64,000 bases of DNA from the NCBI GenBank assembly GCA_964016885.1, contig OZ024743.1, forward strand, positions 23,560,001-23,624,000, in the 5' to 3' direction. Shown here in pieces: positions 3,745-56,940 of this stretch. The position numbers were made by a program, and so were the translations under genes. The stretch is from Eledone cirrhosa (lineage: Eukaryota). The notes under the pieces are model-generated. The model was not told where the DNA came from, searched no databases, and saw only the letters and a list, made by a program, of their open reading frames with translations. Numbering within the stretch: position 1 is the stretch's first letter; each line of letters begins with the position of its first letter.

Positions 3745-3812
3745 CTCCATTACCAAATGTTTCAGGACCCTAAACAATATTAATATACGTCTGGATCGTT
3801 CATCAAACAGAG
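3745..3812 (-). ncRNA. Degenerate type-I hammerhead ribozyme motif (C3U)
   Basis: Minus strand: CUCUGU-UUGAUGA-stem II-GAAAC-auuug-GUA-AUGGAG. Stem I pairs, but core C3 is changed to U. Confidence 0.45.
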
Positions 3813-5092
3813 ATGTTATGTATAGAAAATATGAAATAATATTTTCTATTCATAACATCTCTCTCTCTCTCTCTCTCTCTCTATATATATATATATATAT
3901 ATATATATATATATATATATATATATATATATATATACGCTTAAATTTGGTGGTTTACCACTGGCTACTGCAATGTTAATCATGACATAATACGAGAAAA
4001 GCGCTCGACGTTATACAACTCATCCATCTTTGATGTTGAATCATGTTGGTGGTGCGGGAACGGAGTAAATCTATATATATAAAGGGAAGATGGACATTGT
4101 TTAGTGTACCGAACTTGCATGCTACACCGTTCATCCAATTTTCATGAAACCTCACACATATATAAAACTCAACGCGTAGAGTGGAATAGGCTACTTGAAA
4201 TTTTCGAAAAATCGATAATCGGGCCCTATGACAGAATGTTTTTCGATTCCAATGAAATTTTATGTGAATTCGAACACAAGAACTCTTAGTTTACATCTGG
4301 CGCAATAAAAATAAATTTCATATGCCCATATAAGGACGTGCGTTTCAGTAAACTACCGACCATTAAAGAGTTTATCTTTTCATATTCCACCTTATTCAAG
4401 TGGAAATACAGTATTATCCCTATCTGAAAAGGGAACCAAATTTAATGGTGTCTTTTGTGAACCTAAAAGCTGTGAGTAAATTTTCAAACAGTCTTAAATA
4501 ATCCTGCTTTTTGAAAAAAAAATTACTAAATAATACGTTGACCAAGTTGTGTTGTACACATACAATACAAGTAAAAAAATTTACGTCGTACCAATGTTTT
4601 CCTTTTTTAAACAAAAGATTCTAAAAAATTACTTAATTTATAATACAGTCTTTTGCACAGGAAGTGAGTAACGTTTCGGGTGTTTAAACGTAAGTTCACC
4701 AGGGTTTGTGTCTTCATTATTAGCCCACCTCTAATGGCATTTTTTGTTCTGCTTACGACTAAATGTTATGAGCGTATTTGCAATTAATTGCGCACACGTG
4801 CACACCTGCATGCAGATATCACTGACAGCCAATAAAAAATCGATAACTTGCTTATTAAGATATCGGTCAAAAAGAGAGATTGAATGTACTTTAGAACATT
4901 TTTTGAATATATTGTTCTTTTTGGCATGATATGTCAGAAATATAGCTACTATACACTTTGGTTATTTTTTGTAACTAAAAAACGGTTCCTTTTGGGTGGA
5001 TACTTAACGAGAAAAATCCTAGGGTTTTGGACAAGTTTGTTTCAGGCGCCTATTTTGTCACACCTTGGTCATGAATTCGTATTCTTTTCCAA

Positions 5093-5350
5093 TAGATATT
5101 TTCCGCTCTATAAGGCTCACCAGGATATAAGGCGTATCATTTAAAATCACGTCCGCGCAACGGTGTGTAAGGCCAACCAGAAAATGCTATCTTCTTTACT
5201 TTTAGTCTAGATCTATTACTTCTGTTAGAGCCGTGATTGATTACCATTGTATTATTTATACATAAGGCTCACCGGAGTATAAAGCGCAGAGCTGTTTTTT
5301 TATTAAATTTAATTATTTTAAGTGCGATTTATAGACGGGAAAATTCGGTA
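5093..5350. mobile_element. Tc1/mariner-pogo type MITE nested in the Helitron
   Basis: Imperfect TIRs tagatattttccgctctataa / ttatagacgggaaaattcggta with TA ends. Internal repeated 'taaggctcacc(a/g)ga-tataa' motifs. Confidence 0.6.
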
Positions 5351-5472
5351 AGTTATTGTAATCATATTTCCAAACCTTCCCATTCACCAGTAACCATGCT
5401 AACGAATCTGGTGTCATCTCTCTCTGTATTTAATCACCTCTCTCTAACCTAACAGCTTCGTTACACGTCGTT

Positions 5473-5960
5473 ATGCCCACACGGAAACGTTCAAGACTTA
5501 CCTCCAAAAAAGGTACAGCTATTGCTTTGAGACAACGAATTAGGCGTTCTCAGGTATGAGTTCATTCACAATTGATTAATCTTTATGCAATATTCTCCCT
5601 TAATGTTAGCAAGTACTGCGTTTATCCTAACTGTCACCACTTTTAAGCAACTACAACATTCTAATCGTAGTTATATTAAATTTATTGTCTTACCTTGATT
5701 CCCTTTTGTTCATGTTAGACTTTTCTCATTTACTATTGACACTGCCATTGGCTTAGCTAACCAGTAGAATTAATTAATTTTCTCTGGGAAACACCTGCTG
5801 AGCGCGAATCTCGACTCGCTGATAGACGTCTTTCCCGGCTGGTTGAGTCACCAACATCACGTACGACAAGGCTTGCTGATGTTCGCCTTCGTCGCCAACA
5901 AGCGCTGACGGAGGAATCACCAACATCCCGTCAGACGAGGCTTGAGGCTGTGGCAAAGGG
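5473..5960 (+). pseudogene. Helitron RepHel N-terminal remnant with STPR-like repeats, two exons
   Basis: Exon 1 (5473-5553) MPTRKRSRLTSKKGTAIALRQRIRRSQ, then donor GTATGAG. Exon 2 from 5788: ETPAERESRLADRRLSRLVESPTSRTTRLADVRLRRQQALTEESPTSRQTRLEAV, with E[TS]PxxRxxRL repeats. The acceptor reads GG instead of AG. Confidence 0.65.
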
Positions 5961-6543
5961 CAATAACCCTAGATACAATTTTGATCAACTTTTTTTCACC
6001 TATAGCAAATTTACCGGGACAGGTTTTTAGCTACTCAAATCTACTTCAGAGATCACGCACTGATGTAAAAAATCAATAAAACTGAAGCGGGGCTCGACTT
6101 TGCGCAAAAAAACAAGGCAAAGTTACACATGGGAAAACTTTTTACAGGAACGTCCTATATTCTTGAAAACTGTCACAAAAGACTCGCCATTATGCCGCGG
6201 TTAAGATAAAGGCCCTTTTAATTATTCTTCTGCACATGTGAGCGCAAAAATTGTAAAAAAAAAAACTCTGAAAGTAATCGACATTTTCACCCTGCTTTAA
6301 ATTAACTGAACATTCAATATCAAGCGATTTTGACTTCCGTCAGTCGGGCAGAGAACAATTTCAACGATACACTGTGTAACTACAATTAATAAATTACACA
6401 CCTGTGTCTACTAACCTATTTTTTTCCATTGAAGTTCGAAGTTTTGAACCTGTGATGCGCGGGAAGTAACTTTCACACATTCTAACAGACCAAAGGTCGA
6501 CTTACACCCGGGCAACGCCGGGTACTTCTGCTAGTGTATTATA

Positions 6544-6753
6544 AAGTGAAATGACAGGAGGCTAAATATGTTGAATTTTTACAAATACTATGCACATTTC
6601 GGTGACCAGGCTGCTTGTTTCCTCAAGGTCTACCACCATTCCTTTGGTATACATCTATTACACAATTTACACCTGGTCACTGAAATATGCAAAGTGTTTG
6701 CAGAAATAAAAACTAAGGAAATTCAACATATTTGGCCTCCTGTCATTTCACTT
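6544..6753. repeat. Inverted repeat, ~35-bp arms
   Basis: aagtgaaatgacaggaggctaaatatgttgaattt (6544-6578) pairs with aaattcaacatatttggcctcctgtcatttcactt (6719-6753). Confidence 0.9.
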
Positions 6754-6854
6754 AGAGGACTAACACACACTCTGGATCTGAACATATCAACGAATTAACA
6801 AGGTAAAATCTATTCCAACATTATGTTTTACTGTTTTTTTCTGTTCAAGTTCTA

Positions 6855-6913
6855 GCTGTCTGATGAGGTCATAGCTGTTGAATAATGGTTATCACCGAAA
6901 TATATATAGCAGC
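6855..6913 (+). ncRNA. Minimal type-I hammerhead ribozyme
   Basis: GCUGU-CUGAUGA-[GGUCAUAGCUGUU..AAUGGUUAUCACC stem II]-GAAA-UAUAUA-UA-GCAGC. Intact core, AUA cleavage triplet, palindromic stem III, and AATAAA just downstream. Confidence 0.75.
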
Positions 6914-55282: not shown

Positions 55283-55484
55283 TATATATATATACGTATA
55301 TATATATATATATACACTCATACATATATATACATGTGTGTGTGTGTAATTATATGTAAAGTAACATTTATTGCTGACTTTTGTCAAAGAAACATATTTG
55401 TTTTAAACCAAAAAAGTTGACTGAACTGAAGCAATGCTCTACAGAGTATTTGTTACAGGATGGAATAAGCCAAAAACATATAGC

Positions 55485-55729
55485 TAGTGGTAGTAGTAGT
55501 AGTAGTAGTAGTAGTAGTAGTAGTAGTAGTAGTAGTAGTAGTAGTAGTAGTAGTAGTAGTAGTAGTAGTAGTAGTAGTAGTAGTAGTAGTAGTAGTAGTA
55601 GTAGTAGTAGTAGTAGTAGCAGCAGCAGCAGCAGCAACAGCAGCAGCATCAGCAGCAGTAGCAGTAGCAGCAGCAGCAGCAGCAGCAGCAGCAGTAGTAG
55701 TAGTAGTAGTAGTAGTAGTAGTAGTAGTA
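55485..55729. repeat. Compound (TAG)n/(CAG)n microsatellite
   Basis: Direct sequence. Confidence 0.97.
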
Positions 55730-56180
55730 AATGTTGTCATTGTTGTTGTTTTAGTTAGTGGAATGTTTGATCTAATCTCTAGTTGCCTACAACATCTAAA
55801 TTCCTATATGACACAGAAAGTATTCCTTGACCTTTCCTCCTAGAACACACACATGTACACACACACACGTACACACGTACACACGTACACACACACATAT
55901 ATACACATACATCTGCATAGACACTTGCACACACAGAAACACATACATTGTCACAAACACATAGACACACATGCACACTTACACAATCACATGCATTCAA
56001 ACATACACATACACACACACAATCACATGCATTCATACATACACTTACACACATACACAAACATGCATTTACACACACTCAGTCAAGGATAGTATAAACT
56101 ATCCTTGATGTCTTCCAAAAGTAACGGTTGCATTTTGAAAGGGTACGTCAATATTTATTTATAAAACTGGTATATATTGT

Positions 56181-56243
56181 ATTTTGTCTGATGAAAGCAT
56201 ACCATAATTTAACATGGTATCCTTGAAATATGTATAATAAAAT
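56181..56243 (+). ncRNA. Minimal type-I hammerhead ribozyme
   Basis: AUUUUGU-CUGAUGA-AAGCAUACCAU..AUGGUAUCCUU-GAAA-UAUGUA-UA-AUAAAAU. Confidence 0.8.
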
Positions 56244-56368
56244 AGATATGGTTTTATAAATATAGTTTCCATTTGTTAATATCGTATATATATATATATA
56301 TATATATTTCGTTTCTGAATTTGTTTAGCAAGATTCTTTATCTGAAAACGTGTGTTGAAACCGATATT

Positions 56369-56794
56369 GTTATGCTTTGGGAGGGTCATATTGTCAATAA
56401 GAAACACATGCACCAGTTGCTTTCACTTCAATTTATTATAAATTAAATTTATGAATTTAAGAATTTATAAATTTCCAGTTGGTTGGTTGGTTCCACAACC
56501 AGACGATTGTTCATATATTGTCAAAGACACAACACACACAAAAACGAGATGGCGTAGGACAGAACAAAGGAGGAGCACAAAAACAAAGAAAAAAATCCCC
56601 AGTCACTGAAGAAGTCACAGAATGTGTGACGAAAGAACTTTGACAATATATGAACAATCGTCTGGTTGTGGAACCAACCAACCGGAAATTTATAAATTCT
56701 TAAATTTATAAATTTAATTTATAATAAATTGAAGTGAAAGCAACAACTGGTGTGTGTGTTTCTTATTGGCAACATGACCCTCCCAAAGCATAAC
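56369..56794. repeat. Inverted repeat, ~157-bp arms (56369-56526 / 56638-56794)
   Basis: Arms are near-identical reverse complements. The spacer contains a hammerhead motif. Confidence 0.92.
56602..56644 (+). ncRNA. Hammerhead motif (CUGAAGAA variant)
   Basis: GUCA-CUGAAGA-A-GUCACA..UGUGAC-GAAA-GAAC-UU-UGAC. Confidence 0.6.
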
Positions 56795-56873
56795 TATATA
56801 TATATATATATATATATATATATATATATAAATTCAAAATATTAACAAAAATAGACATTCGTGTGATCAAGTA

Positions 56874-56940
56874 TATTTTATTATACATATTTCAGAGGTA
56901 CTGAGCTATCTTCAACAGTACGTCCTCCTCAGATAAAATA
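56874..56940 (-). ncRNA. Minimal type-I hammerhead ribozyme
   Basis: Minus strand: UAUUUUAU-CUGAGGA-GGACGUACUG..CAGUACCUCU-GAAA-UAUGUA-UA-AUAAAAUA. Confidence 0.75.

What the first reader, a model, noticed from the sequence alone, without database searches (positions are those of the whole stretch)
3745..56940. Dispersed small hammerhead-ribozyme modules beside (TA)n tracts (retrozyme-like / solo Penelope pLTRs)
Seen: about 8 CUGANGA...GAAA-N-UH motifs with pairing stems, at 3745-3812(-), 6855-6913(+), 23496-23560(-), 30251-30326(+), 53587-53627(-), 56181-56243(+), 56602-56644(+) and 56874-56940(-). Only one sits in a coding Penelope element. The others are in 100-500 bp non-coding modules running into (TA)n. 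Three share stem I and stem III (AUUUURU / GAAAUAUGUAUA) while stem II varies yet still pairs, which points to structural conservation. Known: Penelope pLTRs carry minimal type-I hammerheads with short, often palindromic stem III that act as dimers, and non-autonomous retrozymes exist. Inference: a diverse population of self-cleaving mini-retroelements mobilised by PLE RT/GIY-YIG, at roughly one per 8 kb here.
Basis: partly seen in the sequence, partly recalled or inferred. Interest (0 to 1): 0.8.

Follow-up and report, generated by a model that had tools for sequence, protein, structure and literature searches.

The report
Hammerhead-bearing stubs of Penelope retrotransposons
These small hammerhead-ribozyme motifs are real, but most are the stranded 3' ends of known Penelope-type jumping genes that sit in TA repeats rather than a separate class of mini-elements; the likely new detail is a ribozyme variant with a conserved C-C/C-U mismatch, plus a second conserved hairpin next to it.

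Summary
All eight motifs exist; five pass a strict type I hammerhead descriptor, three are mutated copies, and a ninth was missed (40732, -). Shuffles give 0-0.02 hits against 6. Seven of the eight belong to families that elsewhere in this 3.0-Gb genome join RT + GIY-YIG ORFs. Six are Hydra-clade Penelope-like elements (DKT, CxCX5C, TA targets; open 732-742 aa ORFs exist); one is another PLE clade. 30251 remains unlinked. Copies share fixed 3' ends, have variable 5' ends, and 46 of 131 loci carry an inverted copy. None of the 131 is a tandem array of three or more units. So they are 5'-truncated pLTR stubs, as published, not retrozymes; true tandem arrays of other families lie elsewhere in the genome. 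Extrapolated load is about 230,000 motifs. Not found in the papers I could read: an extended stem II with a C-Y mismatch at pair 4 (72 of 77 distinct sequences, flanks covarying), and a bulged hairpin between the two alternative 3' ends. Cleavage is untested and no RNA run was listed.

The parts
3646..3866 (-). Family G: 5'-truncated pLTR stub with short 5' inversion; hammerhead 3745-3812 mutated (U for C3, stem III change), H17 at 3751
   Evidence: 88% to L130, whose inverted copy runs without a break into the 5' UTR and ATG of a Hydra-type ORF with RMRWK-like motif
3938..4070 (-). Solo 'tail' of a C-like family between TA tracts, with the bulged-hairpin motif and no hammerhead
   Evidence: 77% to the tail of L177; sequence
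6535..6753 (.). Foldback of another pLTR stub, truncated inside stem II (3' half of a hammerhead only)
   Evidence: 73% and 86% matches on opposite strands to L168
6743..7064 (+). Family B: pLTR stub, long 3' end with tail; intact hammerhead 6855-6913 (C-C stem II), H17 at 6908
   Evidence: 90% over 362 bp to the 3' end of L098, which holds RT, EN and an upstream tail repeat
23454..23587 (-). Family A2 (sister of A): pLTR stub, short 3' end; intact hammerhead 23496-23560, H17 at 23504
   Evidence: 86-88% to the pLTRs of L031 and L251-L254; same hammerhead in L167; its own genome search returned nothing, not even itself
30098..30385 (+). Family C: older stub with 5' inversion; hammerhead 30251-30326 with a stem III mismatch, H17 at 30321; no ORF link found
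   Evidence: 81-89% copies; shares the C-C stem II and the tail hairpin; no joined ORF in loci
40534..40766 (-).
   Evidence: 96.6% to L208, where a 384-aa RT-EN frame ends about 350 bp upstream
53527..55280 (-). Family E: 5'-truncated, broken Hydra-type PLE (RT C-half and EN, 53986-55167 and beyond) with minimal hammerhead 53587-53627 (mutated), H17 at 53592, and an inverted tail copy at 55189-55278
   Evidence: 37-41% aa identity to family A RT and EN; inverted copy 89% to L134
56100..56284 (+). Family A: young pLTR stub, short 3' end, small 5' inversion; intact hammerhead 56181-56243, H17 at 56236
   Evidence: 40 of 40 scored candidates 100% identical over 126 bp; 96-97% to both pLTRs of L031
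56308..56794 (+). Family F: pLTR stub plus inverted copy (foldback) inside the TA tract; hammerhead 56602-56644, H17 at 56640; PLE with a C-x4-CxxC linker, clade unresolved
   Evidence: 94% to L115; RT-EN frames upstream in L107, L110, L112, L115
56831..57277 (-). Family D: young pLTR stub with an inverted tail at its 5' end (57228-57277); intact hammerhead 56874-56940, H17 at 56882
   Evidence: 98-99% copies; 93% over 422 bp to L097; RT and EN upstream in L097 and L100

Best explanation
The modules are the 3' ends (pseudo-LTR stubs, each with a type I hammerhead motif) of protein-coding Penelope-like retrotransposons, mostly of the TA-associated Hydra clade, likely left when reverse transcription stopped after 100-500 bases. 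Shown: fixed 3' ends, variable 5' ends, 5' inversions, joins to RT + GIY-YIG ORFs, open ORFs in the genome, covarying stems. Inferred: the element's protein nicks a (TA)n tract and starts cDNA inside the RNA at one of two sites, about 50 nt or about 140-210 nt past the cleavage site, which bracket a conserved bulged hairpin (the optional 'tail'). Shown: every stub holds both sides of the cleavage site, so the template was uncut or re-joined there. Inferred: the 8-nt palindromic stem III cannot close in a single copy, so cleavage would need a dimer or the protein, and lone stubs would be mostly inactive and unable to move on their own.
For: Full element L031: inverted stub + upstream pLTR + RT/EN ORF + downstream pLTR. 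Open 732-742 aa ORFs from the start Met in 3 of 4 loci fetched, family A module downstream in 3 of 4; 9 of 150 scored hits have stop-free frames of 743 aa or more. ORF links for B, D, F, G, H. 46 of 131 loci with an inverted copy, 4 with one same-strand copy, 0 with two or more. Bimodal 3' ends in families A, B, C, D. Hydra motifs DKT, CxCX5C, CxxC, CxH met. Stem III fully self-complementary in 73 of 77 long-stem II sequences though only the outer two pairs were required; hairpin energy 0.0, duplex -2.2 to -10.5 kcal/mol for the octamers. Published parallels: most PLE hammerheads are single motifs 'probably related to truncated PLEs' (PMC4209133); two internal RT starts define the tail, and unprocessed RNA is the main substrate (PMC11167929).
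Against: Family C (30251) was not joined to an ORF in three searches (overlapping loci, 1.5-kb flanks), and its shared upstream sequence ends within about 250 bp. A2 is linked only through 86-88% identity to family A. Searches score only the 40 best candidates, which favours young, similar copies. Flanks of 1.5 kb would miss longer-period tandems. The RT-start model comes from a Poseidon-clade element and has not been tested for Hydra. True tandem arrays do exist in this genome (L142, L158), so non-autonomous spread occurs here. No cleavage was tested.
Confidence: 0.86

Rival explanations
1. Same elements, different route: the hammerheads cut tandem transcripts, a ligase closes the unit into a circle, and RT copies the circle, which would also give cDNA spanning the cleavage site and partial tandems.
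For: Model proposed in PMC4209133. Strong conservation of core and stems across families with 49-63% RT identity implies selection on catalysis. Perfect 310-bp and about 482-bp tandem arrays elsewhere.
Against: In the one reconstituted PLE, hammerhead mutants inserted normally and no RNA-seq reads ended at the site (PMC11167929). Nothing in the DNA separates uncut from re-joined templates.
Confidence: 0.25
2. The modules are independent non-autonomous retrozymes or SINE-like units that are transcribed and re-mobilised in trans. Most plausible for family C.
For: High copy numbers (479-3451 first-look candidates per query); C unlinked to an ORF; retrozymes are thought to derive from pLTRs (10.64898/2026.07.22.740005); arrays L142 and L158 exist.
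Against: 7 of 8 modules join coding elements; 5' ends vary; 0 of 131 loci with 3 or more units; the array units have no real match in the window.
Confidence: 0.1
3. Chance motifs in AT-rich repetitive DNA.
For: No Rfam hit; 3 of 8 window copies are degenerate.
Against: 6 hits against 0-0.02 in shuffles; 52 against 0-1 in 390 kb; 96.8% of cells paired, 15 of 17 pairs with changes on both sides.
Confidence: 0.01

Closest known systems
Hydra clade of Penelope-like elements (Craig et al. 2021, PMC8557442; includes Hydra-1_Obim from Octopus bimaculoides)
   Same: C-terminal GIY-YIG EN, DKT, CxCX5C linker, CxxC and CxH, no CCHH, (TA)n insertion, sense-strand type I hammerhead near the 3' end, inverted 5' copies, optional tail.
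   Different: Family A has RWR for RWK and a 3' UTR of about 1.8 kb (element about 4 kb, against under 3 kb); tails are about 90-150 bp, against 30-40 bp; stem II is 3 bp + C-Y mismatch + long helix, a form I saw in none of the Hydra rows of their File S2 (read by eye).
Minimal PLE hammerheads (Cervera and de la Pena 2014, PMC4209133)
   Same: Type I, palindromic short stem III, dispersed single motifs from truncated PLEs, opposite-strand pairs 100-700 bp apart. Families E, F and H are of the short-stem II kind; F has the extra base after A9 and G10.1-C11.1.
   Different: The main variant lacks the extra base after A9 and the conserved G10.1-C11.1 pair (A-U 12, G-U 4, G-C 3 of 20); stem III is an 8-nt palindrome; stem II is far longer.
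Non-LTR retrozymes (PMC7229834; preprint 10.64898/2026.07.22.740005)
   Same: Non-coding, AT-rich, type I hammerhead, a few hundred bp, PLE-related. L142 and L158 elsewhere in the genome fit this pattern.
   Different: The window's families are not tandem and are ends of coding elements.
Poseidon element PAc of Anolis (Frangieh et al. 2024, PMC11167929)
   Same: Two 3' ends downstream of the hammerhead bracketing a tail; AT-rich targets.
   Different: Different clade; there RT starts inside the ORF in an AC-rich stem-loop, here both ends lie in the 5' UTR-equivalent, around an RCUC / YY-GAGYRCU bulged hairpin.

Membership tests
Hydra-clade PLE (families A, A2, B, D, E, G) | Single ORF, RT then C-terminal GIY-YIG EN, no N-terminal EN | tested here: met
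   732-742 aa open ORFs in L252-L254; broken RT-then-EN order in B, D, E; only the RT N-terminus seen for G; A2 by similarity to A
Hydra-clade PLE (families A, A2, B, D, E, G) | DKG changed to DKT | tested here: met
   DKT in 4 of 4 family A ORFs and in B
Hydra-clade PLE (families A, A2, B, D, E, G) | RWK motif, GxKF/Y not conserved | tested here: met
   RIRWR in A (conservative variant), MRWK beside G; no GxKF/Y in 4 of 4 ORFs
Hydra-clade PLE (families A, A2, B, D, E, G) | CxCX5C linker; CCHH absent; CxxC and CxH near the EN end | tested here: met
   CNCRNKSNC, CDLC, CRH in 4 of 4 ORFs, no CX2-5CxxC; CNCRNKPDC in D. CCHH absence judged by eye
Hydra-clade PLE (families A, A2, B, D, E, G) | (TA)n insertion and a sense hammerhead near the 3' end | tested here: met
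Hydra-clade PLE (families A, A2, B, D, E, G) | RT groups with reference Hydra elements in a tree | not tested
   No tree was built; comparison with the supplement alignment was by eye
Hydra-clade PLE (family C) | Joined to a Hydra ORF | tested here: inconclusive
   No join in loci; shares the stem II variant and tail hairpin
Neptune-clade PLE (family H) | CX2-5CxxC linker and CCHH-type EN after the RT | tested here: met
   CNDSRCGTC, long spacer, AMGTKFAP RT motif in L208, matching Neptune rows by eye; no tree
Nematis or Neptune PLE (family F) | CX2-5CxxC linker with clade-typical RT motifs | tested here: inconclusive
   CIDKKCIIC with a short, Nematis-like spacer, but RT motif GAAIG differs from both
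Non-LTR retrozyme | Head-to-tail tandem units each with a hammerhead | tested here: not met
   0 of 131 loci with 3 or more units, 4 with two same-strand copies; met only by other families, L142 and L158
Non-LTR retrozyme | Non-coding, independent of an ORF-bearing parent | tested here: not met
   7 of 8 modules join coding families; C open
Non-LTR retrozyme | Expressed as linear and circular RNA | not testable with these tools
   No RNA holder listed
Type I hammerhead ribozyme | Conserved core with three helices, open stem I, covariation | tested here: met
Type I hammerhead ribozyme | Self-cleavage after NUH | not testable with these tools
   Needs a bench assay

The most novel reading that the evidence does not exclude
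These Hydra-clade elements carry an undescribed two-part RNA platform. One part is a hammerhead whose loop II is replaced by a long helix opened by a conserved C-Y mismatch; the other is a conserved bulged hairpin between the two RT start sites. The element's own RT-endonuclease would bind them, switching cleavage on or off and setting where cDNA begins. With about 120,000 copies of this variant extrapolated and open ORFs at hand, the genome would be among the most hammerhead-rich known and a ready system to test what PLE ribozymes are for.
Probability: 0.3. Interest if true: 0.62.

Novelty: new variant of a known kind. Interest (0 to 1): 0.36.

Why it matters
The main result is ordinary: dispersed hammerheads from truncated Penelope-like elements, and Hydra elements in TA repeats of an octopus, are in print. 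Two things add value. First, the function of PLE hammerheads is still open, and this genome offers open ORFs, very young copies and two conserved RNA features that make clean mutational tests. Second, Rfam misses all of these motifs, while the sample suggests about 230,000 in the genome (138,000-338,000), against up to 120,000 retrozyme copies reported for axolotl (PMC7229834; different descriptor), so ribozyme counts in such genomes are likely underestimated.

Tried and rejected
Rfam: no hammerhead hit; the miRNA hits are TA-repeat artefacts below gathering scores. Pfam: no family for the window's PLE frames, 0 for proteins 1-3. Naiad clade, my first guess from memory: rejected, since Naiads have an N-terminal EN and lack canonical hammerheads. 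Search for A2 copies: empty, uninformative because simple words are skipped. Linking C to an ORF through its module, tail and upstream part: no join; nearby EN matches in L184/L240 and L194 are too close or misplaced for a join. A conserved stem I partner for the C-C mismatch: extended stem I folds in A, A2, B, C, D, but I saw no shared nucleotide. Expression: no RNA holder listed, so no reads were laid. Earlier scan notes: one unrelated note, none on this DNA or genome. Lunse et al. 2017 on PLE hammerhead variants was not held and the supplements of PMC4209133 were not read; either may already show the variant.
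Full report
Observation. A strict type I descriptor finds six motifs in the window: five of the eight and one more at 40732 (-). One hundred block shuffles give 0.00-0.02. The three that fail (3745, 30251, 53587) are mutated copies of families whose other members pass. Rfam finds no hammerhead. All nine motifs lie 48-169 nt upstream of a TA tract.

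Host. The window lies in an unnamed 3.0-Gb assembly, rich in LINE fragments and microsatellites. It resembles an octopod genome; that is recalled, not tested.

What the modules are. Family A (56181): 40 of 40 scored candidates are 100% identical over 126 bp. In 30 loci the shared sequence ends at the same 3' points but starts at many 5' points, often with an inverted copy. Locus L031 shows the parent: inverted stub, upstream pLTR with hammerhead, RT + GIY-YIG frame, long 3' UTR, downstream pLTR with hammerhead. Nine of 150 scored protein hits have stop-free frames of 743 aa or more. I fetched four: three have 732-742 aa ORFs from the start Met, and three have the A module downstream. Family D joins RT and EN in L097 and L100, and B in L098. 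G's inverted copy in L130 runs straight into a 5' UTR and ATG. E sits on its own broken ORF in the window. F and H end other PLE clades. A2 is 86-88% like A. Only C was not joined to an ORF. Of 131 family loci, 46 hold an inverted copy, 4 one same-strand copy and none two or more (three duplicate loci and the window's own loci were left out).

Clade. Craig et al. (PMC8557442; abstract, passages, section 11, supplement passages and part 2 read) define Hydra by RWK, DKT, a CxCX5C linker, no CCHH, (TA)n targets and canonical hammerheads, and list one family from Octopus bimaculoides. Family A meets these, with RWR for RWK. No tree was built. H matches Neptune by eye; F is unresolved.

Structure. 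On 20 sequences that I picked from 114 distinct descriptor hits for their long stem II, 96.8% of cells pair and 15 of 17 pairs change on both sides; 0 of 500 shuffles reach the covariation score. RNAalifold gives the same stems I and II. The descriptor required stem I and the first stem II pairs, and the shuffles ignore kinship, so this is partly built in. Not built in: among all 77 distinct hits with a long stem II and 8-nt stem III, 72 have C opposite C (59) or U (13) at the fourth position of stem II, and 73 have a fully self-complementary stem III. The three pairs below the mismatch vary between families (AAG/CUU, GGA/UCU, GGU/ACC, AAU/AUU, AAA/UUU, GAA/UUC). These 77 are weighted towards the families I searched; about nine lineages is the fair count. 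In the unbiased sample 16 of 28 dispersed hits are of this kind.

Second motif. Copies end either about 50 nt or about 140-210 nt past the cleavage site. The optional tail starts 6-12 nt before RCUC, a helix of variable length, a two-pyrimidine bulge and GAGYRCU. The GAGYRCU word is in 48 of 70 long copies of the variant and 1 of 59 long copies of other hammerheads. The three inner pairs hold in 57 of 66 cells over 22 distinct forms, against 44 in shuffles (0 of 5000; kinship not controlled). Predicted folds are weak in A and D (about -3 kcal/mol), and the free fold differed in several copies.

Load. In 39 regions of 10 kb at round coordinates on 22 large contigs there were 52 hits: 28 dispersed, 17 in a 310-bp tandem array and 7 in a roughly 482-bp array; shuffles gave 0-1. 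Counting each array once, this extrapolates to about 230,000 (bootstrap 138,000-338,000). The sample is not strictly random.

How it likely works. The RT-EN protein nicks (TA)n and starts cDNA inside the RNA at either side of the tail hairpin (inferred from Frangieh et al., PMC11167929, parts 1-2 of 4 read, where two internal starts define the tail). It copies through the hammerhead and usually stops early, often flipping into an inverted copy. Every stub holds both sides of the cleavage site, so the template was uncut or re-joined (shown). Stem III words fold as duplexes, not hairpins, so cleavage would need a dimer or protein help, as reported for other PLE hammerheads (PMC4209133, Results and Discussion read; PMC6765202, passages). 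The role of the C-Y mismatch is unknown; a protein or tertiary docking site is my best guess, and I found no conserved stem I partner.

Comparison and novelty. Dispersed single hammerheads from truncated PLEs are described in PMC4209133. Retrozymes are tandem by definition (PMC7229834, passages; preprint 10.64898/2026.07.22.740005, parts 1-3 of 5). A repeat annotation of Octopus vulgaris lists recently active Penelope families and never mentions hammerheads in its main text (PMC13282606, passages). Eight library searches showed no description of the C-Y stem II or the tail hairpin, but most listed papers were seen only as listings, Lunse et al. 2017 was not held and the supplements of PMC4209133 were not read. 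The scan's earlier notes held nothing on this DNA; one note on a tRNA-bearing repeat in another genome did not move my reading.

Verdict. Observation confirmed; interpretation partly supported. These are pLTR stubs of known Penelope-like clades, with a likely undescribed hammerhead variant. Interest 0.36.

Noticed in passing
L142:3820-9330 (G000:C3, near 55.0 Mb): Tandem array of a 310-bp unit with a short-stem II hammerhead: 12 hits on + and 5 on -, back to back, bounded by (TA)n; neighbouring units 100% identical. Fits a non-LTR retrozyme with a PLE-type 5' inversion. A related solo copy is in L114.
   Followed up: partly
L158:1-3730 (G000:C11, near 15.0 Mb): Tandem array of a roughly 482-bp hammerhead unit (7 hits, 99.8% between neighbours) ending in (TA)n; related solo motifs in L006, L029, L054, L163, L176.
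   Followed up: partly
window 56100-57277: Three PLE stubs of three families packed into one TA tract: A (+), the F foldback, and D (-), 3' ends facing. Suggests repeated targeting of the same microsatellite.
   Followed up: partly
window 53535-53570: The 3' end of element E is followed by a perfect 36-bp hairpin (an inverted copy of its own last bases) before the TA tract.
   Followed up: no
window 23302-23423 (+): 90% match to sequence downstream of another hammerhead family (L133), facing the A2 stub across the TA tract; likely another PLE end.
   Followed up: no
window 18085-18450 (-): Short frame resembling the C-terminal part of a PLE RT (VVNFLDATL), by eye; no Pfam hit.
   Followed up: no
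window 10599-16580, 37581-43240, 48476-51247, 58225-58848, 61911-63355: Many LINE fragments with RT matches (PF00078), including an 829-aa frame with a PHD finger at 40751-43240.
   Followed up: no
window 44475-46520: 2-kb compound CAC/CAT-rich minisatellite (period about 45/99) open in several frames; not a gene by any evidence here.
   Followed up: no
window 8526-8712, 13225-13398, 17424-17767, 26478-26667, 61108-61297, 62450-62647: Copies of a roughly 190-bp dispersed repeat, likely a SINE, 86-95% alike.
   Followed up: no
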